From: Macrostomum lignano
Lineage: Eukaryota
DNA: 31,340 nt
NCBI GenBank assembly: GCA_002269645.1
Contig: NIVC01002654.1
Span: forward strand, 121,371-152,710
Reading direction: 5' to 3'
The translations under genes were made by a program, and so were the position numbers. Positions 10,318 through 31,340 of the stretch are shown piece after piece. Numbering within the stretch: position 1 is the first letter of the stretch; the number at the start of each line of letters is the position of its first letter. The notes below the pieces were generated by a model that made no database searches, was not told where the DNA came from, and saw nothing but the letters and a program-made list of their open reading frames with translations.

Positions 10318-10580
10318 GGATAGAAATGGCACTCATCCTGTTAGATAGGCAATGCCATCATCCAATGGAAGTGGCACTCATCCTGTTAGATAGGCAATGA
10401 CATCATCCAATGGAAGTGGCGCTCATCCTGTTAGATAGACAATAGCATCATCCAATGGAAGTGGCACTCATCCTGTTAGATAGGCAATGCCATCATCGAA
10501 TGGAAGTGGCACTCATCCTGGTAGATAGACAATGGCATCATCCAAAGGAAGTGGCGCTTATCCTGCTAGACAAAAGCAGA
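10318..10580. repeat. 45-bp minisatellite with about 5.5 copies and the unit ggaagtggcactcatcctgttagataggcaatgccatcatccaat. It ends about 15 bp before the KCNMB-like start codon.
   Basis: The motif actcatcctg recurs at 10331, 10376 and 10422, giving a 45-bp period. Confidence 0.9.
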
Positions 10581-10595
10581 TAATGCAATCAATGT

Positions 10596-11033
10596 ATGGA
10601 TCTCTATCACTATTTGCAGAGCCGAGAAGCAATCTCCGCACTGATGGCTCTGGAGCCTCACGGTGTGTGCCACACACTGTGCATAAAATGGAGCGTTGCC
10701 AAGATCATCTATCTCCTATCCGGCTCGCTAATTGTATGCGGCTTCACCGTGGAGATGATTGTCATCGGCATGATAGTGGCGCCCTACCTCAGGGAGGCCG
10801 AGTTCGTGGAGGCCAGTTGCCAGTTTAACTCCAGTCGGTATACCGGCTACACAGACTGCCAAGATGTGAATAGAAAGCCAAATAACAACTTCCCTTGTCT
10901 AGAGGTGCTGGTCAACTTTTTCCCCCACAGTTCCAGTAAATTGCCAGTAAATTCCAGTAAATTGTTCGGAGGCGGAGTGGCCACCATCTACTCCGTGCTG
11001 TCGTACTATGAGGAGTCTTCTAGTACGTCAAAG
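10596..11033 (+). CDS. Exon 1 of KCNMB-like paralog 1 (BK-channel beta-subunit-like two-TM protein). It has a short N-terminus, TM1 (IIYLLSGSLIVCGFTVEMIVIGMIV) and a Cys-containing extracellular loop. It ends at the donor AAG|gtgagc, phase 0.
   Basis: The motif PYLREAEFVEASCQFNS resembles the PALQDLQATEANCTVLS region of vertebrate KCNMB4 as I recall it. The donor GTGAGC immediately follows the last in-frame codon before the stop. An internal Met 17 codons downstream of the start (MALEPHG...) is an alternative start. Confidence 0.6.
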
Positions 11034-11698
11034 GTGAGCTGAAACAGTTTGACTGCCTCACCCGTAAACTGCGCCTTCGCCTGTCTCCTCAGCCGTAAGT
11101 TCACAAGGCCTGTTGCCTAAGTGCTTCTTCGTCCTTGAGCTGTCTTTTCCTATAAAGCAGGTTTTTTTCTAAGAGTCTACATTGTATCTCCTATAGACAG
11201 TTCAGACGGATGAATAATTTCCTACCTCTGTTTCATTTTTTGGCTGAAAATATGCTTCAATTTTAGTGTAGTGACTAGCAATTTGCGCCCCCTTTGGGAG
11301 GCAACAAAGAAAGAAGATTTTTTTTGAATCAGCTACATGTAAGATTTGACTTTGGCAATACAATTGCTATTGTTAATTTATTGAAGCTTGTTAATCCTAC
11401 TGAATTTGAGAAATTCCCCTCTTCCATAAACCTTGCCACCTCAACAATTCTTTTCTTGAGTCCTTACAGCATTTGGACGAATAAGTTCCTCCTTTTTAGC
11501 TGTCTACTACGTGTCCCTTCTCTACGCTCGCTTTCCCTCAGCTATCGGCTCCTGATAATAGATAGCGTCCCACCGAAAGCGACTTCCGTAGGGCTGTATT
11601 TTATCGTATGTTTGACTTTTTAAGTCTTCGCCTAAAATTAATCTTCAAAATTTTTAACCGCCACTTCTGTGTAATTTCCCCAATACAACAATCTACAG

Positions 11699-12860: not shown

Positions 12861-13003
12861 AGATGTGCAACCGACAGCTCAGCCGCAGCAATTGCGCGGC
12901 GCATCTGAAGGCTGCCCTATACGGCTGTTCAGTCCGGGGGTCGCCACACCCTCAATTACCTTAGCTAATGCTTTTATGCATTTTACATCTGGGTGAACTA
13001 AAG
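12861..13003 (-). mobile_element. Truncated copy, 3' body only, of the same SINE family as 16274..16546 and 18450..18699. It ends exactly where the foldback element begins.
   Basis: The sequence agatgtgcaaccgacagctcagccgcagcaattgcgcggcgcatctgaaggctg... aligns with the other two copies. Homology stops at gggtgaactaaagg|ggtacc. Confidence 0.5.
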
Positions 13004-14352
13004 GGGTACCTCTCATTTCGCCGATTCTCGTTTCGCCGAATCTCATTTTGCAGATTCTCGTTTCGCCGAATCTCATTTTGCAGATTCTCGTTTCGCCGAC
13101 ATTATCATTTCGCCGATTCTCGTTTCGCCGAAATTAATTTCATAACCATCTGGACATTAGACCATAGACAACTACACTAATGCCAAGTGTGATTTGGATG
13201 TCTATGGCTTGAAAAAGAAAGTTAAAATTAAGAATTCTTCCTTCTGCATAATCCATGGTAAAAAGTCTATAGCCAGTGGTATATATGTATGGTATAGGAG
13301 GTTGTGAAATACAAAAATGCCGATTGAAATCGTTTCTGTTGGCTTTTCTGGTGAAATAAATAAGTGGTTTTATTGCATTGACTTCTGAATTGAATGAGTT
13401 AAAACTACGCTCGTAATGCTGGTAAGCTAACGAAATTAAGCTGCAAAAAGGCTACGATACTAGCGCAATATTACTATAGCTTTTTGCAGCCCATTTGGGC
13501 TTACGCGCATTGAATTTAATCCAAGATGTTTGTCAAAGTAACGGAGCTTTTGTCTATGGTAGCAAGGCTGGCACAGCGGCATTTAATTTGGTCCAACAAG
13601 CATCAATTTGGTCCATTTAGTTCATTTGCAGCTCAGTCCCAGAATTGTGGACCATATGCTAGGCTGTTGAACGAATGTCATTGGCTTGTGATCGAAGCAC
13701 TCGACGGAGGTGAACACCCAAAGGACATTGCAAGGTTGCTGAATGTAAAAGAAAAGGTGGTTTACAACATCCAGCAGCGCCTTGAAACTCTGCCGGCAGA
13801 GATTGCCTGCGAAAGGGTGGCAATCGCCAAGGAAAGTTGCTCGAGAGCCTCAGGTCAACTGCTACTCGATGCAGTGGAGACGAACCCTTTGTTGACGTTG
13901 CCGAAATGCAGCAGAAGTTGAGGGAACAGCTCCAGTTGGTTATCAGATTTTGACTATCAGCAGAGCTCTGAAAAAGCAACTGAAAATTGCTGGTAGAGAC
14001 GCTGACATTCCAGCGGTGCGCAACAACCTGCAGACAGTTGAGAGAAGGCAAGAGTGTCCAATGGCTCACGAGTGTTTGGACCAAATTGATGCTTGTTGGA
14101 CCAAATTAAATGCCGCTGCGCCAGCCTTGCTACCATAGACAAAAGCTCTGTTACATTGGCAAACGTATCTTGGATTAAATTAAATGCGCGTAAGCCCAAA
14201 TGGGCTGCAAAATGCTATATTACATTACTTTATTTTTCAAGCCATAGACATCTAAATCACATTTGCATTAGTGTAGTTGTCTATGGTCTAATGTCCAGAT
14301 GGTTATTAAATTAATTTCGGCGAAACGAGAATCGGCGAAATGAGAGGTACCC
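13004..14352. mobile_element. Foldback-like DNA transposon of about 1.35 kb with GGTACC-containing termini. The outer terminal inverted repeats (TIRs) are 13004-13217 and 14231-14352. The left TIR carries a 34-bp subterminal tandem expansion. The inner inverted repeats of about 145 bp are 13475-13617 and 14087-14230. A roughly 240-bp left-side insertion lies between the left outer and inner repeats. The unique core carries an ORF.
   Basis: The reverse complement of 14087-14352 matches 13004-13030, then 13150-13217, then 13475-13617 by eye. The 34-bp unit cgccgattctcgtttcgccgaatctcattttgcagatt is repeated in the left arm only. Confidence 0.55.
13526..13921 (+). CDS. ORF remnant in the foldback element core, with a helix-turn-helix-like segment (ECHWLVIEALDGGEHPKDIARLLNVKEKVVYNIQQRL) reminiscent of the Tc1/mariner or pipsqueak-type transposase N-terminal DNA-binding domain. 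Probably non-functional.
   Basis: It has the residue pattern R..IV....G.....IA..L.V....V..I..R. Its first 30 codons lie inside the inverted repeat and are mirrored by minus ORF 13957..14199. At 131 aa it is too short for a transposase. Confidence 0.2.
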   Translation: MFVKVTELLSMVARLAQRHLIWSNKHQFGPFSSFAAQSQNCGPYARLLNECHWLVIEALDGGEHPKDIARLLNVKEKVVYNIQQRLETLPAEIACERVAIAKESCSRASGQLLLDAVETNPLLTLPKCSRS

Positions 14353-15877: not shown

Positions 15878-16213
15878 ATGGCGTTGAAACGCTGCGACCG
15901 CCTATGCAATGTTCACGGCCTGGCCAAGCTCATCTTCCTGGCCTGCATCACTCTCATCACCTGTGGCGTAATTGTTGGCACAATCCTGGTGCCGCTGATC
16001 ATCCTGCCGTACTCCAGAGAGAGCCGCTTCGCCGACGCCAACTGCACCTATCTGACCGAGCACCTCATCGCCAAGCTGCCCTGCGAGAGCAAGTGCAGCA
16101 AAGACAAGAGCAGCTTCCCCTGCTACAGCATTCGGGTCAGCATCAGCCAGACCAATCAAACCGGGATGCTGTACGAGAACTTCATCACGTTTTCTGAGCG
16201 ACACGACGAGCCG
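15878..16213 (+). CDS. Exon 1 of KCNMB-like paralog 2, containing TM1 (LIFLACITLITCGVIVGTILVPLIIL) and the loop start, with donor CCG|gtaaga, phase 0.
   Basis: PYSRESRFADANCTYLTEH and FPCYSIRVS resemble the ATEANCTVLS and YPCVQVYVN regions of KCNMB4 as I recall it. Exon size and intron phase match paralog 1. Confidence 0.55.
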
Positions 16214-16273
16214 GTAAGAACTGTGGTCTAGATAATTTTATTTTGCTGGAGCCGGTGCAACATTTTGATAGAA

Positions 16274-16546
16274 GATGTGCAACCGACAGCTCAGCCGCAG
16301 CTATTGCGCGGCGCATCTGAAGGCTGCGTACGGCTGTTCAGTCGAAGGATTGGGGGGTCGCCAACCACACCATCAATTACCCCAGCTAATGCTGGCACCC
16401 ATTTTACAGCTGGTTGAACTGAAGCAATGCAGAGTTAAATGTACATGTATTTCTCAAGGACACAAATTTTGGCGAGTGGATCGAGAATCGAACCCCCGAC
16501 CTTTCATTCGCGAGTCCGACGCTCTAACCACTAGGCTACAACCCCA
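16274..16546 (-). mobile_element. tRNA-derived SINE, full-length copy in minus orientation, inside the intron of KCNMB-like paralog 2. Its head resembles tRNA-Arg. The central region GTCCTTGAG..ACATTTAACTCTGCATTGCTTC.GTTCAACCAGCTGTAAA.TGGGTGCCAGC is conserved between copies.
   Basis: The minus strand reads GGGGTTGTAGCCTAGTGGTTAGAGCGTCGGACTCGCGAATGAAAGGTCGGGGGTTCGATTC.... The D-arm and anticodon segment resemble GCGTCTGACTTCGGATCAGAAG of tRNA-Arg(TCG). The body is shared with the copies at 18450 and 12861. Confidence 0.6.
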
Positions 16547-18449: not shown

Positions 18450-18699
18450 GTTGTAGCCTAGATGGGGATGTAGCCTCACGTCGGGGGTTCGATTCCCGAT
18501 CCTACTGGAACAATATGTGTCCTTGAGCAAGACATTTAACTCTGCATTGCTTCGGTTCAACCAGCTGTAAATGGGTGCCAGCATTAGCTGGGGTAATTGA
18601 GGCTGTGTGTGGCGACCCCCAGTCCTTGGACTGAACAGCCGTACGCAGCCTTCAGATTCACCGCGCAATAGCTGCGGCTGAGCTGTCGGTTGCACATCT
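18450..18699 (+). mobile_element. Second copy of the SINE family, plus orientation and inverted relative to the copy at 16274. The head is rearranged: GTTGTAGCCTAG is partly duplicated and the D-arm and anticodon segment is deleted.
   Basis: GTTGTAGCCTAGATGGGGATGTAGCCTCACGTCGGGGGTTCGATTCCCGATCC is followed by a body collinear with the reverse complement of 16274-16546, ending ggttgcacatct. Confidence 0.55.
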
Positions 18700-18948: not shown

Positions 18949-19085
18949 GCTCAACTCCAGGTGAGGGACTCAGGACCTGCTCAACTCCAGGTGACGGACT
19001 CAGGACCTGCTCAACTCCAGGTGAGGGACTCAGGACCTGCTCAACTCCATCCAGGTGAGGGACTCAGGACTCAGGACCTGCTCAC
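18949..19085 (+). repeat. Short array of about 4.5 copies of the 30-bp satellite ctgctcaactccaggtgagggactcaggac. The terminal unit supplies the GTGAGC donor of the putative exon at 19086.
   Basis: Direct reading shows the same family as 19900-20510 and 22231-23215. Confidence 0.9.
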
Positions 19086-19899: not shown

Positions 19900-20510
19900 G
19901 GTTGAGCAGATCCTGAGTCTCTCACCTGCAGTTGAGCAGGTCCTGAGTCGCTCATCTGCAGTTGAGCAGATCCTGAGTCTCTCACCTGCAGTTGAGCAGG
20001 TCCTGAGTCGCTCATCTGCAGTTGAGCAGATCCTGAGTCTCTCACCTGCAGTTGAGCAGGTCCTGAGTCCCGCATCTGGAGTTGAGAAGGTCCTGAGTCG
20101 CTCATCTGCAGTTGAGCAGATCCTGAGTCTCTCACCTGCAGTTGAGCAGGTCCTGAGTCGCTCATCTGCAGTTGAGAAGGTCCTGAGTCGCTCATCTGCA
20201 GTTGAGCAGATCCTGAGTCCCGCATCTGGAGTTGAGAAGGTCCTAAGTCCCTCATCTGGAGTTGAGAAGGTCCTAAGTCCCTCATCCGGAGTTGAGAAGG
20301 TCCTAAGTCCCTCATCCGGAGTTGAGAAGGTCCTGAGTCCCTCATCCGGAGTTGAGAAGGTCCTGAGTCCCTCATCCGGAGTTGAGAAGGTCCTGAGTCC
20401 CTCATCCGGAGTTGAGAAGGTCCTGAGTCCCTCATCCGGAGTTGAGAAGGTCCTAAGTCCCTCATCTGGAGTTGAGAAGGTCCTGAGTCCCTCATCCGGA
20501 GTTGAGCAGG
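19900..20510 (-). repeat. 30-bp satellite array of about 20 copies in reverse orientation, unit ctcacctgcagttgagcaggtcctgagtcg, with ordered subvariants.
   Basis: Direct reading. The reverse complement equals the unit of 22231-23215. The 263-aa ORF over it is a periodicity artefact. Confidence 0.9.
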
Positions 20511-20522
20511 AGTAGTGGAATG

Positions 20523-20680
20523 AGGTGTCACTGGAGTGTCAGAAAGGAAAGTGTCAAAAACTGTGGTGTCAAAAGGGAGGTGTCAGAATGGGAGGTGTCA
20601 AAATGGGAGGTGTCAGAATGGAAGGTGTCAGTATGGGAGGTGTCAGAACGGGAGGTGTCAGAACGAGAGGTGTCAGACGG
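20523..20680. repeat. 15-bp minisatellite of about 10 copies, unit ggaggtgtcagaatg.
   Basis: tgtcagaatg at 20581 and tgtcaaaatg at 20596 give a 15-bp period. Confidence 0.85.
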
Positions 20681-21159
20681 AAGAGTTGACAAAAAGAAAG
20701 TTGCTGTGTCTATAGATACCTTTGTGACTACTGGTTGAACTAGGGCAGTCTATGTTTTCAAAAATGTGAAGCATTAAAATGACTCTGAATTTTTAAAAGT
20801 AATAGAACAAAACTGATACAAACTTTTCTGACAACAACGGAGGCAGTTAATTTTATAAGCATTGTCGATTTCAAAACGGAATATATTTAATAAATAACAA
20901 TTTTTATTTAGACGCTCAACTCCGATAACATGCGGGCTGGAGGTGCTTCATCTCAAACAGAAAAAAAACGGTGCGTCCATTCTCTTTCAAAGAATTCAAA
21001 AAACACCTTATAGTGCACAGTCTAACAAAAATTTACAACGCACAGAGGCAATGTTATGAGAAATGAGTGGAGCAGGATGAACTGTTTCTTAGGAAAAGCA
21101 ACGGCTTAAAGGATAACACCCTGGCAGTACTGCCGTGGACAGCGAAAGTATAAGGGTGC

Positions 21160-21355
21160 CTGCACTGAGCATCTCACCCTGCACTGAGCATCTCACCCTG
21201 CACTGAGTATCTCACCCTGCACTGAGCATCTCACCCTGCACTGAGCATCTCACCCTGCACTGAGCATCTCACCCTGCACTGAGTATCTCACCCTGCACTG
21301 AGTATCTCACCCTGCAATGAGTATCTCACCCTGCAATGAGTATCTCACCCTGCGC
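21160..21355. repeat. 21-bp minisatellite of about 9-10 copies, unit ctgcactgagcatctcaccct, with gagc/gagt/aatg variants.
   Basis: Direct reading. Confidence 0.85.
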
Positions 21356-21626
21356 TGAGAAAGTTATTGCGCTGAAAATAGAAAAAAATTGTATTTCAAA
21401 AGCGATGAATCGATGGTAATGTTTCGGGTGTTGCGTCCTTCTGCTTTGGTTGTCCGCGAGTTGCTACTGCTAATAAAATTCATAAGTAGTATACATATTT
21501 ACTATAAGAATAATTAGAGCTAAACTTTACAGTTATAAAGATCCGGCCACCAGCTGCCACCTCGCATGTGACTTTACTCGCATTGCATATGCTCATTCAA
21601 AAATGTCCACAGGCCATAGCAACGGG

Positions 21627-22151
21627 TCATCGGGAAGCTGCGGCGAAGGTCAACCCGTCATCTCGGCGAACCTCCGGCTCCGGCTCGGGCAGAGACGCAC
21701 CCGATTCTTCGTTGGCTTCACGCAGTCCAGCCTCCTCGCGATCGGCTTCATCGTCCTCTCCGAGTTCCTGCTCCTCCTCATAGTCTGCGTCGGCATCACA
21801 GGCGTATTTGCCGAGCTCTGCCGAGTCGGCGGCGAACAGGCTCTGGTAGGCGCCAACGAGCTGCTGGAACAGCGGCTGCTGCTGTGAGCTGTCGGCCTCG
21901 CTGTGAGCCAGAGTCGCAGTCTCCACAACGTGGCACCAAGGCGCCGAGGCTGCAGCGGCGGCAGCAGCGGCCGCGGCGGCTGCGGCAGCGGCTGAATAGG
22001 CCGACTGAGCATCCTGCTGCTGCTGCTGATGCTGTTGCTGAGAATGATGAAGATGGCTAGGATGCTGCAGATGATGCTGGCCGCCAAGGTGCTGTCTCGG
22101 ATCGTGTCTGACAGGCGATGACGCAATCATTGGTATGCCGTTCAGAGTGCG
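21627..22151 (-). CDS. ISL: Islet LIM-homeobox gene, C-terminal coding exon. It follows the acceptor cttgtcttacctctccccag|, phase 0. The translation is RTLNGIPMIASSPVRHDPRQ...polyQ, polyA...QQQPLFQQLVGAYQSLF...acidic tail, then a stop.
   Basis: LNGIPMIASSPVRHD and QPLFQQLVGAY match vertebrate ISL1 IQGMTGTPMVAASPERHD and QPAFQQLVNF as I recall them. A strong polypyrimidine acceptor is present, and the phase is continuous with the homeodomain exon. Confidence 0.75.
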   Translation of the reverse strand, partial: RTLNGIPMIASSPVRHDPRQHLGGQHHLQHPSHLHHSQQQHQQQQQDAQSAYSAAAAAAAAAAAAAAASAPWCHVVETATLAHSEADSSQQQPLFQQLVGAYQSLFAADSAELGKYACDADADYEEEQELGEDDEADREEAGLREANEESGASLPEPEPEVRRDDGLTFAAASR

Positions 22152-22230
22152 CTGGGGAGAGGTAAGACAAGCTTTCCATGCATTTTGTTTATTGCAGTTA
22201 AATATGACGCTATCATGTTAAATCTTCTCA

Positions 22231-23215
22231 GTTCCCGGTTAAGGACTCAGGATCTGCCCGAATTCAGATGAAGGCCTCAGGATCTGCTCAACTGCAGGTA
22301 AGAGACTCAGGATCTGCTCAACTGCATGTGAGGGACTCAGGACCTGCTCAGCTCCCGGTGAGGGACTCAGGACCTACTCAACTGCGGGTGAGGAACTCAG
22401 GATCTGCTCAAATTCAGGTGAGGGACTCAGGATCTGCTCAACTTCAGATGAGGAACTCAGGATCTGCTCAACTGCAGGTGAGGGACTCAGGACCTGCTCA
22501 ACTGCATGTGAGGGACTCAGGACCTGCTCAACTTCAGATGAGGAACTCAGGATCTGCTCAACTGCAGGTGAGGGACTCAGGACCTACTCAACTGCGGGTG
22601 AGGAACTCGGGATCTGCTCAAATTCAGGTGAGGGACTCAGGATCTGCTCAACTTCAGATGAGGAACTCAGGATCTGCTCAACTGCAGGTGAGGGACTCAG
22701 GACCTGCTCAACTGCATGTGAGGGACTCAGGACCTGCTCAACTTCAGATGAGGAACTCAGGATCTGCTCAACTGCATGTGAGGGACTCAGGACCTACTCA
22801 ACTGCGGGTGAGGAACTCAGGATCTGCTCAAATTCAGGTGAGGGACTCAGGATCTGCTCAACTTCAGATGAGGAACTCAGGATCTGCTCAACTGCAGGTG
22901 AGGGACTCAGGACCTGCTCAACTGCATGTGAGGGACTCAGGACCTGCTCAACTTCAGATGAGGAACTCAGGATCTGCTCAACTGCAGGTGAGGGACTCAG
23001 GACCTGCTCAACTGCGGGTGAGGGACTCAGGACCTGCTCAACTGCATGTGAGGGACTCAGGACCTGCTCAGCTCCCCGGTAAGAGACTCAGGATCTGCTC
23101 AACTGCGGGTGAGGGACTCAGGACCTGCTCAACTGCATGTGAGGGACTCAGGACCTGCTCAGCTCCCCGGTAAGAGACTCAGGATCTGCTCAACTCCCGG
23201 TGAGAGACTCAGGCT
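22231..23215 (+). repeat. 30-bp satellite array of about 32 copies, plus orientation, unit ctgctcaactgcaggtgagggactcaggac, with a higher-order pattern of variants. It lies in the Islet intron between the homeodomain and C-terminal exons.
   Basis: Direct reading. The 301-aa RDSGPAQLQV ORF is a periodicity artefact. Confidence 0.9.
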
Positions 23216-23809
23216 GCACTCCCGCACACTGAAAGCAGGTGCACTAGCCGGTCGCTGCGCAATTGTTGGTGGTGGAGTCAAAATTCGGGGGGGGGGCAAT
23301 AATAGTGAGGGCTTGGGCGAGCGTAACTAGAAAAAGATTAGCGACCGCGTCTCTTGGTCTCTTCCGGCACTGCCAGGGGTCTTGTTTGGTCAGGCCTTGC
23401 CAAACGCCTCCTTCCGCCGTCGCCCCCCCCCTCAAATCAGCCCGGCTGCTGCGGTTTCTGGGATCTGCTGCGACCCCCCCCCCCTCGGGCTAGTGGGTGG
23501 ACTCAAACAAGCTGGCTGGGGAACACGGCATAGAATCCCATTATTCAGCTATTTCAGTCGGCCAGGTGTTTACGCAGCTGAGATCTCATCCTCAGGGGGG
23601 CGTGGAGCTGCACTGTGGATTTCTGCTGCTTCTGGTTCGGCAACCTCGGGGTGGACAATTTCACTGCACCTAAGCCGACCTGCACACTGCTTGTCACTCT
23701 GTCTGTCTGCCAGTACGTAAATCAATTTTTAACTGCTATTTGGTTTTGCTATTGACGTCTCATTTCTATTAAGTTGTTCTCAGAGGAGAGTTTCCCGCCA
23801 TTAGAAAGG

Positions 23810-24300
23810 AATGAATGAATAGAATGGATTGCTAATCTAGCCAACATCACGGATGCAGGAATAGAATGGATTGCTAATCTAGCCAACATCACGGATGCAG
23901 GAATAGAATGGATTGCTAATCTAGCCAACATCACGGATGCAGGAATAGAATGGATTGCTAATCTAGCCAACATCACGGATGCAGGAATAGAATGGATTGC
24001 TAATCTAGCCAACATCACGGATGCAGGAATAGAATGGATTGCTAATCTAGCCAACATCACGGATGCAGGAATGGAATGGATTGCTAATCTAGCCAACATC
24101 ACGGATGCAGGAATAGAATGGATTGCTAATCTAGCTAACATCACGGATGCAGGAATAGAATGGATTGCTAATCTAGCCAACATCACGGATGCAGGAATGG
24201 AATGGATTGCTAATCTAGCCAACATCACGGATGCAGGAATAGAATGGATTGCTAATCTAGCCAACATCACGGATGCAGGAATAGAATGGATTTGCTAATC
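23810..24300. repeat. 42-bp minisatellite of about 11.5 copies, unit gaatagaatggattgctaatctagccaacatcacggatgcag. It lies in an Islet intron and ends 50 bp from the homeodomain exon donor.
   Basis: Direct reading. Units are nearly identical. Confidence 0.9.
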
Positions 24301-24351
24301 TGTCTTATAAATAATGAACAAAAAAGATTACCTTCTGATAGACATCCTCAC

Positions 24352-24731
24352 CTTCTGCTGCTGGTGCTCCATCTGTTTCATGAGCAGCTGTTTCTTCTTG
24401 TCCTTGCACCGCTTGTTCTGAAACCAGACCCTGATGACTCGCGGGCTCAGGCCGGTCATCTCCACCAGCTGCTCCTTCATCAGCGCGTCCGGCCGAGGAT
24501 TGGCCGCGTAGCAGGTGCGCAGCGTGTGCAGCTGCTTCTCGTTCAGCACCGTCCGGACTCGGGTCGCTTTGCTGCTGTCCTTGCCGCCGCCGCCGCCGCC
24601 GCCACAGACGGTTTTTCCGCGCTTCCCTCCGCCTGCGGCGGCGCCACTTGAAGCGCCGGTTCCACTGCCGACACCGTTGGACACAGCAGGCTCCGACGCC
24701 GTTGACTGACTCGCTGAATCCTCGTCGTTGC
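24352..24731 (-). CDS. ISL: Islet LIM-homeobox gene, homeodomain exon. It follows the acceptor aacctgataaacag|, starts in phase 1 with 2 bases, and ends at the donor CAGAAG|gtgagg, phase 0. It encodes ...[72 protein letters not shown]
   Basis: The homeodomain is identical over about 57 residues to vertebrate ISL1 ([57 protein letters not shown]) as I recall it. The ORF-track Met at 24684 is actually a GTG. Confidence 0.9.
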
Positions 24732-25145
24732 CTGTTTATCAGGTTAAGGGAGCGAGTCGTACGTTTCCCCAAATCAGGAGCATCTTGCATCATTTGCCGT
24801 CTTGTTCGCCAACAATATGTATTAAGCCCGAAAGGAAATGGCGCCCAGCTACCGGTCTGAGGGAATTTCGAATAGAAAAATCATTGTCCGCCCGCCAATA
24901 CGAGGCCTCCGAGATCGCGTCCTGTCCTGTCTTGTCTTGTCTTGGCTTGTCTTGGCCTGTCCACCTTAATCCCTCGCTGGTGGGCTGGCACAGAAGCAGC
25001 AACAGCAGCACAGCAAGAGAAGGCAGCAGTTGGAGCAGCAGACGCCGCCACGGCCGCCGCCACCAAGTCCCGCCAGCAGACGAGGAGTCTCCTCCATCCC
25101 CCGTCTCCCCAGCAGAAAGTGGATGCCTAAAAGTATTAAAGAAAG

Positions 25146-25163
25146 AACACACACACACACAAA
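25146..25163. repeat. (AC)n microsatellite.
   Basis: acacacacacacacaaac. Confidence 0.8.
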
Positions 25164-25579
25164 CAGGCACGCACGACTAAACGTCTAGTCTTGCTTTTCT
25201 GTATGTCGTCTGATCCTTTAGACTGTGGGGTGGGTGGGTGGTCCTGTCAGGCCCTTGGGGTGGGGCTCTTGCTAGGGCACGAATGGGGGTCCCGACTGCC
25301 TGGCCCCCTGCTACAAAGAAGCCCATTAATCACCCCGGGAAGTCCGCCTTTTTCAAGCCGGGGCGAAACGACGGTGCAGAGGATAACCTGCCCGGTCCAT
25401 CCCCACACTGCTTTCCCAGATCCCACTTGTCAGTCAGGCAGTAAAGGCCAAATGTTCATGTAGGCATGACAATGGCCTGCTTTATCAACTGGACATTGGA
25501 GGTAGCTGAACCACCTGAATGCGCTCGGCAGCACAACTGAGAATTTTCAGAAATTTCACTGAGATTAAGGTTTCTTTAA

Positions 25580-26338
25580 CACAATCTGCGGACACAATCT
25601 AGGCAAATCTGCAGACACAATCTTGACATAGCTGGAGACACAATCTTGACATAGCTGGAGACACAATCTTGACAAATCTGCAGACACAATCTCGGCAAAT
25701 CTGCAGACACAATCTCGGCAAATCTGCAGACACAATCTAGGCAAATCTGCAGGCACAATCTCGGCAAATCTGCAGACACAATCTTGACAAATCTGCAGAC
25801 ACAATCTCGGCAAATCTGCAGACACAATCTCGGCAAATCTGCAGGCACAATCTCGGCAAATCTGCAGACACAATCTTGACAAATCTGCAGACACAATCTC
25901 GGCAAATCTGCAGACACAATCTTGACAAATCTGCAGACACAATCTTGACAAATCTGCAGACACAATCTTGACAAATCTGCAGACACAATCTTGACAAATC
26001 TGCAGACACAATCTCGGCAAATCTGCAGACACAATCTTGACAAATCTGCAGACACAATCTAGGCAAATCTGCAGGCACAATCTCGGCAAATCTGCAGACA
26101 CAATCTCGGCAAATCTGCAGACACAATCTAGGCAAATCTGCAGACAATCTCGGCAAATCTGCAGACACAATCTAGGCAAATCTGCAGGCACAATCTCGGC
26201 AAATCTGCAGACACAATCTCGGCAAATCTGCAGACACAATCTTGACAAATCTGCAGACACAATCTCGGCATATCTGCAGACACAATCTCGGCAAATCTGC
26301 AGACACAATCTTGACAAATCTGCAGACACAATCTCGAC
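25580..26338. repeat. 23-bp minisatellite of about 32 copies, unit caaatctgcagacacaatctcgg, with cttgac/ctaggc/ctcggc variants. It lies in the Islet intron between the LIM2 and homeodomain exons.
   Basis: Direct reading. The minus-strand ORFs rich in RLCLQICRDCVC are artefacts because 3 x 23 = 69. Confidence 0.9.
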
Positions 26339-26992
26339 ACAGCCACAGACACAAGCTTAGCACAAGTCACAGACACAAGCTTAGCACAAGCCACAGACAC
26401 AAGTTTAGCACAAGTCACAGACACAAGCTTAGCACAAGTCACAGACACAAGCTTAGCACAAGTCACAGACAAGTTTAGCACAAGTCACAGACACAAGCTT
26501 AGCACAAGCCACAGACACAAGTTTAGCACAAGTCACAGACACAAGCTTAGCACAAGTCACAGACACAAGCTTAGCACAAGTCACAGACACAAGCTTAGCA
26601 CAAGTCACAGACAAGTTTAGCACAAGCCACAGACACAAGTTTAGCACAAGTCACAGACACAAGCTTAGCACAAGTCACAGACACAAGCTTAGCACAAGTC
26701 ACAGACAAGTTTAGCACAAGTCACAGACACAAGCTTAGCACAAGTCACAGACAAGTTTAGCACAAGCCACAGACACAAGTTTAGCACAAGTCACAGACAC
26801 AAGCTTAGCACAAGTCACAGACAAGTTTAGCACAAGCCACAGACACAAGTTTAGCACAAGTCACAGACACAAGCTTAGCACAAGCCACAGACACAAGTTT
26901 AGCACAAGTCACAGACACAAGCTTAGCACAAGTCAGAGACAAGTTTAGCACAAGCCACAGACACAAGTTTAGCACAAGCCACAGACACAAGC
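26339..26992. repeat. 24-bp minisatellite of about 27 copies, unit acacaagcttagcacaagtcacag, with 21-bp deletion variants. It is directly contiguous with the 23-bp array and shares the CAGACACAA core.
   Basis: Direct reading. The +-strand ORF translating to repeated HRHKLSTS is an artefact. Confidence 0.9.
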
Positions 26993-27570
26993 TCAGAAGT
27001 CTCAATGCACCCCATATGCCAATATTCTATGATTGAGACCATCGAGCTTTTGCAGTCAAATTGAAATAGGAATCCTAGCGCCGACTATTCGCTATCGCAA
27101 TCCTGTTTGAACTGCAAAAGCCAGCGCTGAATCTCAGTCCAGACCTCCTCAGGATCGTGACTAAACCGCGATTTCAAAGTGACGGCCGTGCTCTAGCCAA
27201 AAATGAAATTGGAAAGTTTTATAAAGTCAAGTTGGGGATATAAAATATTGGGATTTAGATTGGCGTGGTGGGGGGGGGGATAATCTCGACGCGAGTGGCT
27301 CTCGGCAGATGCCAGATATAAACCCGGGACTTCACAAATTATCTGCCCATAAGAGGCTCTTCATGCTGATGCAATTATCAAACACTTCTCTTATCAAATT
27401 GATGGGAAGCGATGAGAACCTTCTGTTTTGGCAGTTTACCCTCAAATTGCATCTGCAGGGCCTACTTGATGTTGGCTGACAGTTTCAGGTCAATAAAATT
27501 CAATTTTCACCTATTGATAGATGAAGCTGTCAAATTGAAACCATCATTTTGTTGTCAATCTGCTGTCTGC

Positions 27571-27935
27571 TATCAACCTGAAGCTATCAACCTGAAGCTA
27601 TCAACCTGAAGCTATCAACCTGAAGCTATCAACCTGAAGCTATCAACCTGAAGCTATCAACCTGAAGCTATCAACCTGAAGCTATCAACCTGAAGCTATC
27701 AACCTGAAGCTATCAACCTGAAGCTATCAACCTGAAGCTATCAACCTGAAGCTATCAACCTGAAGCTATCAACCTGAAGCTATCAACCTGAAGCTATCAA
27801 CCTGAAGCTATCAACCTGAAGCTATCAACCTGAAGCTATCAACCTGAAGCTATCAACCTGAAGCTATCAACCTGAAGCTATCAACCTGAAGCTATCAACC
27901 TGAAGCTATCAACCTGAAGCTATCAACCTGAAGCT
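27571..27935. repeat. 14-bp tandem repeat of about 26 near-perfect copies, unit tatcaacctgaagc.
   Basis: Direct reading. Confidence 0.9.
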
Positions 27936-28165
27936 AGCCTGAAACTAGCAACCTGAAGCTAACCTGAAACTAAAACCTGAAGCTAGCCTGAAACTGTCAA
28001 CCTGAAGCTAGCCTGAAACTGTCAACCTGAAGCTAGCCTGAAACTGTCAACCTGAAGCTAGCCTGAAACTGTCAACCTAAAGCTAGCCTGAAACTGTCAA
28101 CCTGAAGCTAGCCTGAAACTGTCAACCTGAAGCTAGCCTGAAACTGTCAACCTGAAGCTAGCAAC
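27936..28165. repeat. 25-bp minisatellite of about 8 copies, unit gaagctagcctgaaactgtcaacct. It is derived from and contiguous with the 14-bp unit.
   Basis: Direct reading. Confidence 0.85.
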
Positions 28166-28216
28166 TGTACATTCTTCATCTGTACTGTCACAAGCCCAGC
28201 GGAGCCAATTGCTCAC

Positions 28217-28554
28217 ACTCCATACCCGGGTGCAGCTGGTTCACCCCGCTGCTGCCAATGCTGTCGCCCGGGCTGCCAACGCCGACAATGTGCGACGGCG
28301 GCTGCTGTTGCGGCGACCTCTGCGTTGTCGACGACGCGTCGACGAAATCTCCAGTGAGCAGCGCGTCAAAGTCGGCCCGACAGTAGATGCCGCCGTCGTC
28401 GCGTCTAACGCCGAATTCTTCGCCTGGAACCAGCTGCCTCGCGCAGGCCTGGCAGCGGAAGCAGGTCACGTGATAGAGCCGGGACTGGGCGCGCATCACC
28501 GGCTCGGACTTGACCAGGGCGACGCTGCACTTGGCGCACCGGCTGCCGAACAGC
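28217..28554 (-). CDS. ISL: Islet LIM-homeobox gene, LIM2 exon. It follows the acceptor ctctcacctctccag|, phase 2, and encodes (R)LFGSRCAKCSVALVKSEPVMRAQSRLYHVTCFRCQACARQLVPGEEFGVRRDDGGIYCRADFDALL... The donor is either GAGT|gtgagc, giving a 3' end of 28217, or CCGG|gtatgg, giving 28226. Both are phase 1 and compatible with the homeodomain exon.
   Basis: Matches the ISL1 LIM2 region [63 protein letters not shown] as I recall it. Exon phase arithmetic was checked by hand. The 207-aa ORF 28188..28811 contains it, and its upstream part is minisatellite. Confidence 0.8.
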
Positions 28555-28614
28555 CTGGAGAGGTGAGAGCGAGGCGAGCGGTTTGAGTGAGGGGAGAGGG
28601 TAGGCAAAGGGAAT

Positions 28615-28838
28615 GGAGATGATGCAGAGGAGAGGGCGGAGATGATGCAGAGGAGAGGGCGGAGATGATGCAGAGGAGAGGGCGGAGATGATGCAGAGGA
28701 GAGGGCGGAGATGATGCAGAGGAGAGGGCGGAGATGATGCAGAGGAGAGGGCGGAGATGATGCATCGGAGAGGTCGGAGATGATGCGGAGGAGAGGTCGG
28801 AGATGATGCATCGGAGAGGTCGGAGATGATGCGGAGGA
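28615..28838. repeat. 23-bp minisatellite of about 9.5 copies, unit ggagatgatgcagaggagagggc. It starts about 60 bp upstream, in the intron, of the Islet LIM2 exon acceptor.
   Basis: gatgcagagg at 28621 and 28644 give a 23-bp period. Confidence 0.9.
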
Positions 28839-29439
28839 AAGACGATAAAAAAATCGTCTCTAAATTTTTCCCAATTAGCTCGTACTGAGAGAATTTTTAG
28901 TGAGACAGCAGGGAGACGGTGAAGGATGGGATAAAAGTAAACGGACATTCGATAGGGTATTTATCGTTCTGCGTTGTGAGATACGCGTTCATTTGAATAG
29001 AGATATCCACAATCTACATGGACTTGGTGGTCCATGACTGGCGAGTCCAGGTCTACGTAGCAGAGGGCAGAGGCCCTTATCCACTTAAGACTTCCCCTTT
29101 CCTATAAGGAGTTTGGCGCAGCGCATGAGGTAAGGGAGGCAGGCAGATGAGCCGGTCTGTAAGCTCGTGCATGTTCTCTCGTTTGTATGCCGCATGCCCC
29201 CCAGGAAGGCGGAAGCGTTTTTCAATGGCCCAGACTGTGTAGGGTCACCTCCGGTATTTCTGAGTACAGTTGCATGCTGCAGCTGGGTCTCCAAGATGCT
29301 TTTGCTCCATCGTTTGGCAATTTTAGAGGAGAAAGCGAGTGTCCATTTTGTTTGCCTCACGGCATCGGGGCCTGGGGGATGCGTGGGCTGAAGGCGTGAA
29401 AAGTTTCTAAACTATAAGATGGCTAAGCTCAGACTATAT

Positions 29440-31340
29440 GCTCATGCTAATACCCGATGACTACTTATTGATCATGCTCATAATACCACATGAGTATTAA
29501 TTGATCATGCTCATAATACCATATGACTATCAATGATCATGCTCATAATACCATATGACTATTCAATGATCATGCTCATAATATCAGATGACTATTCAAT
29601 GATCATGCTCATAATACCAGATGACTATTCAATGATCATGCTCATAATACAGATGACTATTCAATGATCATGCACATAATACCAGATGACTATTCAATGA
29701 TCATGCTCATAATACCAGATGACTATTCAATGATCATGCTCATAATATCAGATGACTATTCAATGATCATGCTCATAATACCAGATGACTATTCAATGAT
29801 CATGCTCACAATACCAGATGACTATTCAATGATCATGCTCATAATACCAGATGAGTATTAATTGATCATGCTCATAATACCATATGACTATTCAATGATC
29901 ATGCTCATAATATCAGATGACTATTCAATGATCATGCTCATAATATCAGATGACTATTCAATGATCATGCTCATAATACCATATGACTATTCAATGATCA
30001 TGCTCATAATACCAGATGACTATTCAATGATCATGCTCATAATATCAGATGACTATTCAATGATCATGCTCATAATACCAGATGACTATTCAATGATCAT
30101 GCTCACAATACCAGATGACTATTCAATGATCATGCTCATAATACCAGATGAGTATTAATTGATCATGCTCATAATACCATATGACTATTCAATGATCATG
30201 CTCATAATATCAGATGACTATTCAATGATCATGCTCATAATATCAGATGACTATTCAATGATCATGCTCATAATACATATGACTATTCAATGATCATGCT
30301 CATAATACCAGATGACTATTCAATGATCATGCTCATAATACCAGATGAGTATTAATTGATCATGCTCATAATACCATATGACTATTCAATGACCATGCTC
30401 ATAATACCATATGACTATTCAATGATCATGCTCATAATACCAGATGAGTATTCAATGATCATGCTCATAATACCAGATGATATTCAATGATCATGCTCAT
30501 AATACCAGATGACTATTCAATGATCATGCTCATAATACCATATGACTATTCAATGACCATGCTCATAATACCATATGACTATTCAATGATCATGCTCATA
30601 ATACCATATGACTATTCAATGATCATGCTCATAATACCAGATGACTATTCAATGATCATGCTCATAATACCAGATGACTATTCAATGATCATGCTCATAA
30701 TACCAGATGACTATTCAATGATCATGCTCATAATACCAGATGACTATTCATGATCATGCTCATATTACCATGACTATTCAATGATCATGCTCATAATACC
30801 ATATGACTATTCAATGATCATGCTCATAATACCATATGACTATTTCAATGATCATGCTCATAATACCAGATGACTATTCAATGATCATGCTCATAATACC
30901 ATATGACTATTCAATGACCAGCTCATAATACCATATGACTATTCAATGATCATGGCTCATAATACAGATGACTATTCAATGATCATGTCATAATACAGAT
31001 GACTATTCAATGATCATGCTCATAATACCAGATGACTATTCAATGATCATGCTCATAATACCAGATGACTATTCAATGATCATGCTCATAATACCAGATG
31101 ACTATTCAATGATCATGCTCATATTACCATGACTATTCAATGATCATGCTCATAATACCTATGACTATTCAATGATCATGCTCATAATACCATATGACTA
31201 TTTCAATGATCATGCTCATAATACCAGATGACTATTCAATGATCATGCTCATAATACCAGATGACTATTCAATGATCATGCTCATATTACCATGACTATT
31301 CAATGATCATGCTCATAATACCATATGACTATTCAATGAT
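29440..31340. repeat. 33-bp satellite of about 58 copies, unit accagatgactattcaatgatcatgctcataat, with ccag/ccat/tcag variants and occasional 1-bp indels. It runs off the window end and presumably lies in the Islet intron upstream of LIM2.
   Basis: accagatgac at 29681 and 29714 give a 33-bp period. The MIMLIIPDDYS ORFs are artefacts. Confidence 0.9.

What the first reader, a model, noticed from the sequence alone, without database searches (positions are those of the whole stretch)
21627..31340. Islet LIM-homeobox gene whose introns and 3' flank are saturated with at least 12 distinct tandem minisatellite arrays
Three Islet exons (LIM2, homeodomain, C-terminal) are recognisable on the minus strand with consistent splice phases. 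Almost all non-exonic DNA between and around them is tandem repeat, with units of 14, 15, 21, 23, 23, 24, 25, 30, 33 and 42 bp. Several arrays end within 50-100 bp of splice sites: the 42-bp array is next to the homeodomain donor and a 23-bp array is next to the LIM2 acceptor. Developmental transcription-factor loci normally have introns rich in conserved non-coding elements, not satellites. Such arrays are expected to be length-polymorphic and hard to assemble. The LIM1 exon and first exon are missing and must lie beyond the 33-bp satellite that runs off the window.
Basis: partly seen in the sequence, partly recalled or inferred. Interest (0 to 1): 0.75.

Follow-up and report, generated by a model that had tools for sequence, protein, structure and literature searches.

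The report
Flatworm Islet gene with minisatellite-filled introns
This is the 3' two-thirds of the Islet developmental gene of the flatworm Macrostomum lignano; about two-thirds of its intron DNA is short tandem repeats, a strong local excess but of a kind already known to make up about 13% of this genome.

Summary
The three minus-strand exons are real. They are LIM2 (28554..28226 or 28217), homeodomain (24731..24352) and C-terminal (22151..21627). They have AG/GT sites and matching phases and splice into one open frame. That frame hits Pfam LIM and Homeodomain, and its best solved-structure match is the ISL1 homeodomain (E 2.3e-35). A neighbouring gene is 99% identical to a Macrostomum lignano protein, so the window is from that flatworm or a very close relative.

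The arrays are also real, but the description overstates them. Inside 21627-31340 there are eight substantial minisatellite arrays (units 30, 42, 23, 24, 14, 25, 23 and 33 bp) and one marginal array. That is not "at least 12", and no 21-bp array exists. Arrays cover 66% of intronic DNA, not "almost all". They stop 50-91 bp from four of the five splice sites.

Published figures for M. lignano give 13.1% tandem repeats genome-wide and note that repeats hamper assembly. The locus is therefore about 5-fold enriched, but not different in kind. I found no shared core motif, no transposon flanks and no sign of function. The best reading is neutral in-situ minisatellite expansion, limited by the need to keep splice signals. 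Interest is low.

The parts
28217..28554 (-). Islet LIM2 exon. The acceptor AG precedes 28554 (phase 2 relative to the missing upstream exon). The donor is at 28226 (CGG|GTATGG) or 28217 (AGT|GTGAGC).
   Evidence: Sequence; splice and frame check; Pfam LIM E 1.9e-12; ISL1 LIM2 in 4jcj E 5.5e-20; all eight zinc ligands present, C-x2-C...H-x2-C-x2-C-x2-C...C-x2-D.
24352..24731 (-). Islet linker and homeodomain exon. Acceptor AACAG|GC (phase 1), donor AAG|GTGAGG (phase 0).
   Evidence: Pfam Homeodomain E 1.3e-15; rat ISL1 homeodomain 1bw5 E 2.3e-35, identical across the 60-residue core apart from one flanking substitution.
21627..22151 (-). Islet C-terminal exon, ending in stop codon TGA (21629..21627). 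It contains the Islet-type motifs GIPMIASSPVRHD and QQPLFQQLV, plus polyQ and polyA tracts.
   Evidence: tblastn of five Islets hits 22148-22065; C-terminal BLAST hits to Islets of sea urchin, molluscs and mites.
20903..20908 (-). The only canonical AATAAA downstream of the stop codon, 719 nt away. If it is used, the 19-bp array lies within the 3'UTR.
   Evidence: Motif scan. Inference only; there is no transcript data.
29448..31340 (.). 33-bp minisatellite, 57.8 copies, 94% matches. It runs off the window end, in the intron upstream of LIM2.
   Evidence: TRF; the repeat finder D2/D4 show higher-order variant structure.
28615..28838 (.). 23-bp minisatellite (GGAGATGATGCAGAGGAGAGGGC), 9.7 copies. 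It ends 60 bp upstream of the LIM2 acceptor.
   Evidence: TRF; distance.
27569..28165 (.). 14-bp minisatellite. About 27 copies at 27569-27932 are 100% identical. It grades into a 25-bp derivative array (27949-28165, 99% identity). It ends 51-60 bp from the LIM2 donor.
   Evidence: TRF; the repeat finder D6 and D12; distance.
25583..26993 (.). Two abutting arrays: 23 bp x33.7 (25583-26354) and 24 bp x29.5 (26300-26993, with 70/94-bp higher-order periodicity). Both units contain CAGACACAA.
   Evidence: TRF; D1 and D7; unit comparison.
24919..24961 (.). Marginal 5/10/15-bp micro-repeat, 187 bp upstream of the homeodomain acceptor.
   Evidence: TRF, scores 51-54.
23817..24301 (.). 42-bp minisatellite, 11.5 copies, 98% matches. 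It ends 50 bp from the homeodomain donor.
   Evidence: TRF; D9; distance.
22243..23213 (.). 30-bp minisatellite, 32.3 copies, 85% matches. It starts 91 bp upstream of the C-terminal exon acceptor. It belongs to a family present three times in the window.
   Evidence: TRF; D3 and D8; consensus comparison.
21159..21359 (.). 19-bp minisatellite, 10.6 copies, in the probable 3'UTR (outside the finding's coordinates).
   Evidence: TRF; D11.
20536..20677 (.). 15-bp minisatellite, 9.5 copies, in the 3' flank.
   Evidence: TRF; D13.
19901..20510 (.). 30-bp minisatellite of the same family as 22243-23213 but inverted (about 610 nt, 86% complementary). Together the two arrays bracket the last Islet exon and 3'UTR.
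   Evidence: TRF; inverted repeats I1-I25; consensus differs at 2 of 30 positions.
18949..19070 (.). Third, short (3.9 copies) array of the 30-bp family, in direct orientation.
   Evidence: TRF; D8.
23214..23816 (.). Unique, non-repetitive intronic block of 603 bp. Similar blocks lie at 24962-25582 (621 bp), 26994-27568 (575 bp) and 28839-29447 (609 bp). These are the only places where intronic regulatory sequence could sit.
   Evidence: Autocorrelation scan: no periodicity above the background of 0.43-0.52. Self-BLAST shows no similarity among them.

Best explanation
The region is the 3' part (LIM2, homeodomain and C-terminal exons) of an intact, apparently unannotated Islet/Tailup-class LIM-homeobox gene of Macrostomum lignano or a very close relative. 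Its introns (2.2 kb, 3.5 kb and more than 2.8 kb, against a published genome average of 1.1-1.4 kb) and its 3' flank have been inflated by about a dozen independent minisatellite amplifications.

The arrays most likely arose and turn over in place, by replication slippage and unequal exchange. They are tolerated as neutral intron filler. Selection shows only in that every array stops at least 50 bp from a splice site, which preserves the donor, branch-point and polypyrimidine signals, and that the exons are repeat-free apart from codon repeats.

Shown here: exon structure, protein identity, array anatomy, coverage, and source organism. Inferred: the amplification mechanism, neutrality, actual use of the splice sites, and the poly(A) site.
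For: Gene:
- The spliced frame is open in one frame only, with canonical sites.
- Pfam LIM and Homeodomain both hit.
- The best PDB matches are ISL1.
- All 120 homologues listed (of 865 found) are LIM-homeodomain proteins, and nearly all that carry a name are called Islet or Tailup.
- The zinc ligands are intact.

Organism: the adjacent nucleolin-like ORF is 99% identical to NCBI M. lignano BOX15_Mlig016750g1.

Genome background (PMC5730564): tandem repeats 13.12% and simple repeats 1.34% of the genome, average intron 1.1-1.4 kb, and assembly hampered by simple repeats.

In-situ growth and turnover:
- Neighbouring arrays have related units. The 23- and 24-bp units share CAGACACAA, and the 14-bp unit has a 25-bp derivative.
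- Array ages differ. Identity is 100% over about 27 copies of the 14-mer and 98% for the 42-mer, against 85% for the 30-mer.
- There are higher-order periodicities of 70/94 bp.

Boundaries: arrays end 50, 51-60, 60 and 91 bp from splice sites and never enter exons.

No indication of other content: no Rfam family or tRNA, no hidden repeats, and no TE-like shared flanks.
Against: The locus is about 5 times richer in tandem repeats than the published genome average and about 20 times richer than the adjacent 15 kb. Pure neutrality does not explain why the repeats are concentrated here. I could not obtain the genome-wide distribution, transcript data or a second assembly of the locus. The four unique spacers have oddly similar sizes (575-621 bp), which is unexplained. 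No M. lignano Islet protein is in the 5.8-billion-protein database, so expression of this model is unverified.
Confidence: 0.85

Rival explanations
1. Assembly artefact: the arrays, or their lengths, order and orientation, are mis-assembled products of a repeat-rich, partly duplicated genome.
For: Published assessment of M. lignano assemblies found only 64% error-free bases in Mlig_3_7 and 32% in ML2, plus extensive duplicated blocks (PMC5730564). The NCBI model of the neighbouring gene differs from the window by 7-aa and 39-aa gaps inside a 111-bp coding tandem repeat and by a frameshift. So assembly versions or haplotypes do disagree at tandem repeats. The inverted duplication of the 30-bp array around the last exon is the kind of structure assemblers can create.
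Against: The exons are in the correct order and orientation with consistent phases. Each array has unique flanks and its own internal variant pattern and higher-order structure. Eleven different unit sequences cannot arise from collapse of one repeat. Copy numbers may be wrong, but the arrays' existence is very unlikely to be an artefact.
Confidence: 0.07
2. The arrays are functional: tandem binding-site arrays acting as enhancers or silencers, chromatin or pairing elements, or small-RNA sources. On this view they have taken the place that conserved non-coding elements occupy at Islet loci in other animals.
For: There is strong local enrichment (66% against 3.4% next door and about 13% genome-wide). 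The arrays cluster exactly over a developmental regulator and its 3' flank. Satellite-like repeats near genes have been proposed to modulate expression in other invertebrates (abstracts of PMC3411249 and PMC4675708, seen; not read in full).
Against: There is no shared core motif among unit families: TGCAG occurs in 5 of 11, a result reached by 270 of 5000 shuffles. There is no Rfam hit. Units are unrelated in sequence and arrays differ widely in age, as expected for random turnover. No conservation or expression data are available. One window cannot show specificity to developmental genes.
Confidence: 0.05
3. The arrays were delivered by mobile elements that carry internal tandem repeats (for example Helitron/Helentron-type or MITE-like non-autonomous elements) rather than generated in place.
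For: The 30-bp family occurs at three sites within 4.3 kb in both orientations, with consensus units differing at only 2 of 30 positions. Elsewhere in the window a foldback element carries subterminal 15-bp tandem repeats. Helentron-borne satellite-like arrays are documented in oyster (abstract of PMC7492417, seen).
Against: The flanks of the three 30-bp arrays share no detectable similarity (blastn-short). Self-BLAST of the window finds no dispersed copies of any sequence flanking the Islet arrays. All other unit families are single-site in the window.
Confidence: 0.1

Closest known systems
Islet / Tailup LIM-homeodomain transcription factors (vertebrate ISL1/ISL2, Drosophila tup, planarian islet1/islet2)
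   Same: The LIM2 domain has all zinc ligands. The homeodomain is essentially identical to rat ISL1 (1bw5, E 2.3e-35). The Islet-type C-terminal motifs (G-I/T-P-M-V/I-A-S-S-P-x-R-H-D and Q-P-x-F-Q-Q-L-V) are present.
   Different: LIM2 is at most about 60% identical to any of the 120 retrieved Islets. The linker is long and rich in Gly and Ser. The C-terminus has polyQ and polyA tracts and an acidic tail. The region corresponding to VEVQSYQPPWKALSDFAL is strongly diverged. LIM1 and the first exon are not in the window.
Minisatellites (VNTRs) of animal genomes, including the tandem-repeat fraction already reported for M. lignano (13.1% of Mlig_3_7)
   Same: Units are 14-42 bp, head-to-tail, with tens of copies, internal variants and higher-order structure, in intronic or flanking positions.
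   Different: Local density is exceptional: 8-9 arrays in 8.5 kb of intron, 66% coverage. There is no common GC-rich, chi-like core of the kind described for classical human minisatellites (my own knowledge of Jeffreys 1985; tested, not significant).
Satellite-DNA-containing gigantic introns (Drosophila Y-linked kl-3/kl-5; PMC6508621)
   Same: Introns are composed largely of tandem repeats that must be transcribed through.
   Different: The scale differs by three orders of magnitude (2-3.5 kb here against megabases). Here there are many different units rather than simple satellites. Nothing suggests a dedicated expression programme.
Euchromatic satellite-like arrays near genes in Tribolium and oyster (PMC4675708, PMC3411249, PMC7492417)
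   Same: Short arrays of tandem repeats are dispersed in gene-rich euchromatin, sometimes in introns.
   Different: Those arrays are typically about 170-bp monomers or TE-borne families present at many loci. Here the units are 14-42 bp, and no TE flanks were detected.

Membership tests
Islet (ISL/Tup) LIM-homeodomain family | Islet-type homeodomain | tested here: met
   Pfam Homeodomain E 1.3e-15. The best PDB match is the ISL1 homeodomain 1bw5, E 2.3e-35, against 4.7e-12 for the next LIM-HD class (Lhx4). The 60-residue core is identical.
Islet (ISL/Tup) LIM-homeodomain family | Second LIM domain with a C2HC + C4/C3D zinc-ligand pattern, closest to Islet LIM2 | tested here: met
   Pfam LIM E 1.9e-12. 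ISL1 LIM2 in 4jcj E 5.5e-20, better than Lhx3/4 or LMO4. The ligand regular expression matches. Identity to other Islets is only 52-60%.
Islet (ISL/Tup) LIM-homeodomain family | First LIM domain N-terminal to LIM2 | not testable with these tools
   There is no LIM1-like hit anywhere in the window (tblastn, E up to 10). The upstream intron runs off the window inside the 33-bp array.
Islet (ISL/Tup) LIM-homeodomain family | Islet-specific C-terminal motifs (PMVASSPxRHD, and QPxFQQLV) | tested here: met
   GIPMIASSPVRHD and QQPLFQQLV are present in the translation. tblastn of five Islets aligns to 22148-22065. C-terminal-only BLAST hits Islets. The intervening conserved stretch is poorly preserved.
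Minisatellite arrays | Head-to-tail arrays of 10-100 bp units with multiple copies | tested here: met
   TRF scores 385-3283 for seven arrays; periods 14-42 bp; 9.7-57.8 copies. Confirmed independently by the repeat finder.
Minisatellite arrays | Length polymorphism between alleles or individuals | not testable with these tools
   No second copy of the Islet locus could be retrieved. The only indirect hint is that the coding 111-bp repeat at 1696-2569 differs in copy number from the NCBI model.
Minisatellite arrays | Shared core motif among families (as in classical human hypervariable minisatellites) | tested here: not met
   The best shared 5-mer, CTGCA/TGCAG, occurs in 5 of 11 families, and 270 of 5000 shuffles reach this. 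The 6-mers and 7-mers are at chance level.
TE-borne satellite-like arrays (Helentron/MITE type) | Arrays embedded in conserved, dispersed flanking sequence | tested here: not met
   There is no similarity between flanks of the three 30-bp arrays and no dispersed matches to array flanks in the window. A genome-wide test was not possible.
Satellite-containing gigantic introns | Introns of hundreds of kb to Mb made of satellite DNA | tested here: not met
   Complete introns are 2,200 and 3,485 bp. The third is more than 2,786 bp but truncated by the window.

The most novel reading that the evidence does not exclude
In Macrostomum lignano, tandem arrays preferentially accumulate in developmental regulator loci and serve a function there. 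For example, they could act as repeated binding-site modules or chromatin or pairing elements that replace conserved non-coding elements. Alternatively, the 610-nt inverted 30-bp arrays that bracket the last Islet exon could mediate regulated inversion or dsRNA formation that controls Islet output.
Probability: 0.04. Interest if true: 0.65.

Novelty: new member of a known kind. Interest (0 to 1): 0.2.

Why it matters
There is modest practical value. The window gives a clean partial gene model for a flatworm Islet orthologue that appears to be missing from public protein sets. A possible reason is that the GenBank annotation of Mlig_3_7 discarded transcripts overlapping repeat annotations (PMC5730564). 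Islet is a regeneration and patterning gene in planarians, so users of the Macrostomum model may want the model.

The locus also illustrates how far minisatellites can fill the introns of an essential gene while keeping at least 50 bp of splice-signal buffer. It flags a region where assemblies and genotyping will be unreliable. It does not reveal a new type of element or mechanism.

Tried and rejected
1. Shared core motif among the 11 unit families. TGCAG looked promising (5 of 11 families), but the result is not significant after accounting for all k-mers.

2. Cryptic splice sites created by the arrays on the sense strand. Acceptor-like sites reach 6.8 per kb in the 30-bp-array intron, against 2.6-3.1 per kb in control DNA. 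There are essentially no donor-like sites, so nothing is compelling.

3. TE carriage of the 30-bp family. No shared flanks were found.

4. Hidden degenerate arrays in the inter-array gaps. None were found.

5. Independent copies of the locus. Exact-protein look-ups of six window ORFs and of the NCBI M. lignano protein all failed. A homology search with the CaKB-like ORF found nothing. Two metagenome scans, with the 30-bp tandem core and the 33-bp unit, found nothing.

6. Rfam and tRNA scans of the whole window found nothing.

7. The Wasik et al. 2015 genome paper could not be read because it is not held. Its content is cited only as relayed by PMC5730564.

8. The closest Islet-like genomic locus retrieved (L001, an unnamed Logan assembly) has a very short LIM2-homeodomain intron and only 43 bp of tandem repeat in 16.7 kb. 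It is useful only as a contrast, since its species is unknown.

Full report
**Observation.** The minus strand of 21627-31340 carries three exons with canonical splice signals.
- A LIM2 exon begins after CTCTCCAG at 28554. It ends at either of two in-phase donors, 28226 (CGG|GTATGG) or 28217 (AGT|GTGAGC).
- A linker and homeodomain exon runs 24731..24352 (AACAG|GC ... AAG|GTGAGG).
- A terminal exon runs 22151..21627 (CCCCAG|CGC ... TGA).

Joining them gives one frame with no internal stop and two frames with 8-12 stops. An in-frame TAA two codons upstream of 24731 pins that acceptor (read).

**Protein identity.** The 410-residue product hits Pfam Homeodomain (1.3e-15) and LIM (1.9e-12). Its best solved-structure matches are the rat ISL1 homeodomain (1bw5, 2.3e-35, identical across the 60-residue core) and ISL1 LIM2 (4jcj, 5.5e-20). 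The large protein database returns 865 homologues; the 120 listed are all LIM-homeodomain proteins, and nearly all that carry a name are called Islet or Tailup. The eight zinc ligands of LIM2 are intact. The Islet C-terminal motifs GIPMIASSPVRHD and QQPLFQQLV are present. LIM1 is not in the window.

**Arrays.** TRF and an independent repeat finder agree on the following arrays inside the stated coordinates:

| Unit | Copies | Coordinates | Note |
|---|---|---|---|
| 30 bp | 32.3 | 22243-23213 | 85% matches |
| 42 bp | 11.5 | 23817-24301 | 98% matches |
| 23 bp | 33.7 | 25583-26354 | |
| 24 bp | 29.5 | 26300-26993 | 70/94-bp higher-order period |
| 14 bp | about 27 | 27569-27948 | 27569-27932 perfectly homogeneous |
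| 25 bp | | 27949-28165 | derivative of the 14-mer |
| 23 bp | 9.7 | 28615-28838 | |
| 33 bp | 57.8 | 29448-31340 | runs off the window |
| 5/15 bp | | 24919-24961 | marginal |

That is eight substantial arrays, not twelve. No 21-bp array exists, and an autocorrelation scan shows nothing hidden in the gaps. Twelve to thirteen arrays are reached only by including the real 3' flank. For a minus-strand gene that flank lies below 21627, outside the stated range. It holds a 19-bp array (21159-21359), a 15-bp array (20536-20677), an inverted 30-bp array (19901-20510) and a short 30-bp array (18949-19070).

Arrays cover 66% of intronic bases, 66/59/76% for the three introns. Coverage is 41% in the 3' flank and 3.4% in the neighbouring 15 kb. 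They stop 50, 51-60, 60 and 91 bp from four of the five splice sites; the nearest repeat to the homeodomain acceptor is 187 bp away. Four unique intronic blocks of 575-621 bp remain.

**Source organism and background.** The RRM half of the nucleolin-like ORF at 1344-3767 is 99% identical to NCBI 'hypothetical protein BOX15_Mlig016750g1 [Macrostomum lignano]'. The window therefore comes from this free-living flatworm or a very close relative or homeologue.

The annotated genome paper (PMC5730564) reports the following:
- Tandem repeats make up 13.12% and low-complexity or simple repeats 1.34% of the assembly (Supplementary Table 4).
- The average intron is 1.1-1.4 kb.

Against that background the Islet locus is a hot spot, about 5 times the genome average, but it is made of an element class already known to be abundant there. 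The same paper states that the GenBank annotation excluded transcripts overlapping repeat annotations. This is a plausible, though untested, reason why no M. lignano Islet protein appears among the homologues.

**How the arrays got there.** Several features point to local amplification and turnover:
- Adjacent arrays have related units. The 23- and 24-bp units share CAGACACAA, and the 14-mer grades into a 25-mer.
- Array homogeneity ranges from 100% and 98% (14-mer, 42-mer) down to 85% (30-mer), which implies different ages.
- Higher-order periodicities are present.

The three arrays of the 30-bp family differ at 2 of 30 consensus positions but share no flanking sequence. Self-BLAST finds no dispersed copies of array flanks. 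Nothing in the window therefore supports delivery by transposons. A candidate common core (TGCAG in 5 of 11 families) is not significant: 270 of 5000 shuffles reach it. The arrays do not add a meaningful excess of splice-like motifs on the sense strand, and no RNA family or tRNA is present.

The most economical explanation is neutral in-situ minisatellite expansion by slippage or unequal exchange. Expansion is limited by purifying selection on exons and on roughly 50 nt of splice-signal sequence next to them. This mechanism is inferred, not shown.

**Artefact question.** I could not retrieve a second assembly of the Islet locus. The NCBI model of the neighbouring gene is identical to the window in unique sequence, apart from one substitution and a frameshift near the 3' end of the NCBI model. 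It lacks 7 and 39 residues inside the 111-bp coding tandem repeat. Tandem-repeat copy number at this locus therefore does differ between versions, through either polymorphism or assembly error. Copy numbers in the Islet arrays should be treated as provisional. The existence of eleven different unit families with unique flanks, and the correct exon order, argue against an artefactual origin.

**Comparison and verdict.** The gene is a member of the Islet family by every feature that could be tested; LIM1 is outside the window. Its LIM2 domain is unusually divergent (at most 60% identity) and its homeodomain is invariant. The repeats are ordinary minisatellites at unusually high local density. 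They are not comparable in scale to the satellite-filled megabase introns of Drosophila Y-linked genes (PMC6508621), and they do not match the TE-borne or ~170-bp euchromatic satellites described in beetles and oysters. The closest Islet-like genomic locus I could fetch, from an unnamed organism, has a very short LIM2-homeodomain intron and almost no tandem repeat. Repeat saturation is thus a property of this genome rather than of Islet loci.

The finding is real but largely explained by known properties of the M. lignano genome. I score interest at 0.2, and novelty as a new member of known kinds.

Noticed in passing
window 1344-3767 (+): An uninterrupted 807-aa nucleolin-like ORF. It has acidic Ser-rich repeats encoded by a 111-bp tandem repeat (1696-2569, 7.4 copies), RRM domains and a C-terminal GAR (RGG) domain encoded by another repeat (3541-3688). 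The NCBI M. lignano model Mlig016750g1 is identical in unique sequence, apart from one substitution and a frameshift near its 3' end. It lacks 7 and 39 residues inside the repeat.
   Followed up: partly
window 19901-20510 and 22243-23213: Two arrays of the same 30-bp family lie in inverted orientation (about 610 nt, 86% complementary, about 1.7 kb apart). They bracket the last Islet exon and its probable 3'UTR. This could allow hairpin or cruciform formation, or inversion of the terminal exon. With the AATAAA at 20908, the distal arm would lie outside the mRNA.
   Followed up: partly
window 23214-23816, 24962-25582, 26994-27568, 28839-29447: The four non-repetitive blocks left between the intronic arrays are all 575-621 bp long and unrelated to each other. 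The similar sizes are unexplained. They are the only candidates for intronic regulatory sequence.
   Followed up: partly
window 10596-11042 (+) and 15878-16231 (+): Two paralogous ORFs weakly match Pfam CaKB, the BK-channel beta-subunit/TipE-like family (E 6.8e-8 above the cutoff for one, 0.0068 below the cutoff for the other). A 45-bp x5.5 minisatellite (10323-10570) sits immediately upstream of the first ORF. The database word search found no homologue for the second.
   Followed up: partly
window 13011-14345: A foldback-like element. It has inverted repeats 13105-13222/14343-14227 (96%) and 13472-13615/14222-14077 (94%). It has subterminal 15-bp tandem repeats at both ends in opposite orientation (13011-13132 and 14317-14345). 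Its internal ORF (13526-13921) has a weak helix-turn-helix match (HTH_29, below the cutoff). It is probably a decayed DNA transposon.
   Followed up: partly
window 12861-13003, 16273-16500, 18480-18699 (inverted): Three copies (81-89% identity) of a dispersed element of about 150-230 bp, probably a SINE or MITE. ARAGORN finds no tRNA in it.
   Followed up: no
window 25000-28000: There is strong strand asymmetry over the intronic arrays: on the + strand, AT skew reaches +0.45 and GC skew -0.24. The Islet sense strand is therefore G+T-rich. Only a few unit sequences drive this, so it may mean nothing.
   Followed up: no
L001 112-408 and 5784-6689: The closest Islet-like genomic contig (Logan SRR23372229, organism unnamed) carries a second homeodomain-encoding ORF 5.4 kb upstream of the Islet-like gene. 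It has very short introns and has only 43 bp of tandem repeat in 16.7 kb.
   Followed up: partly
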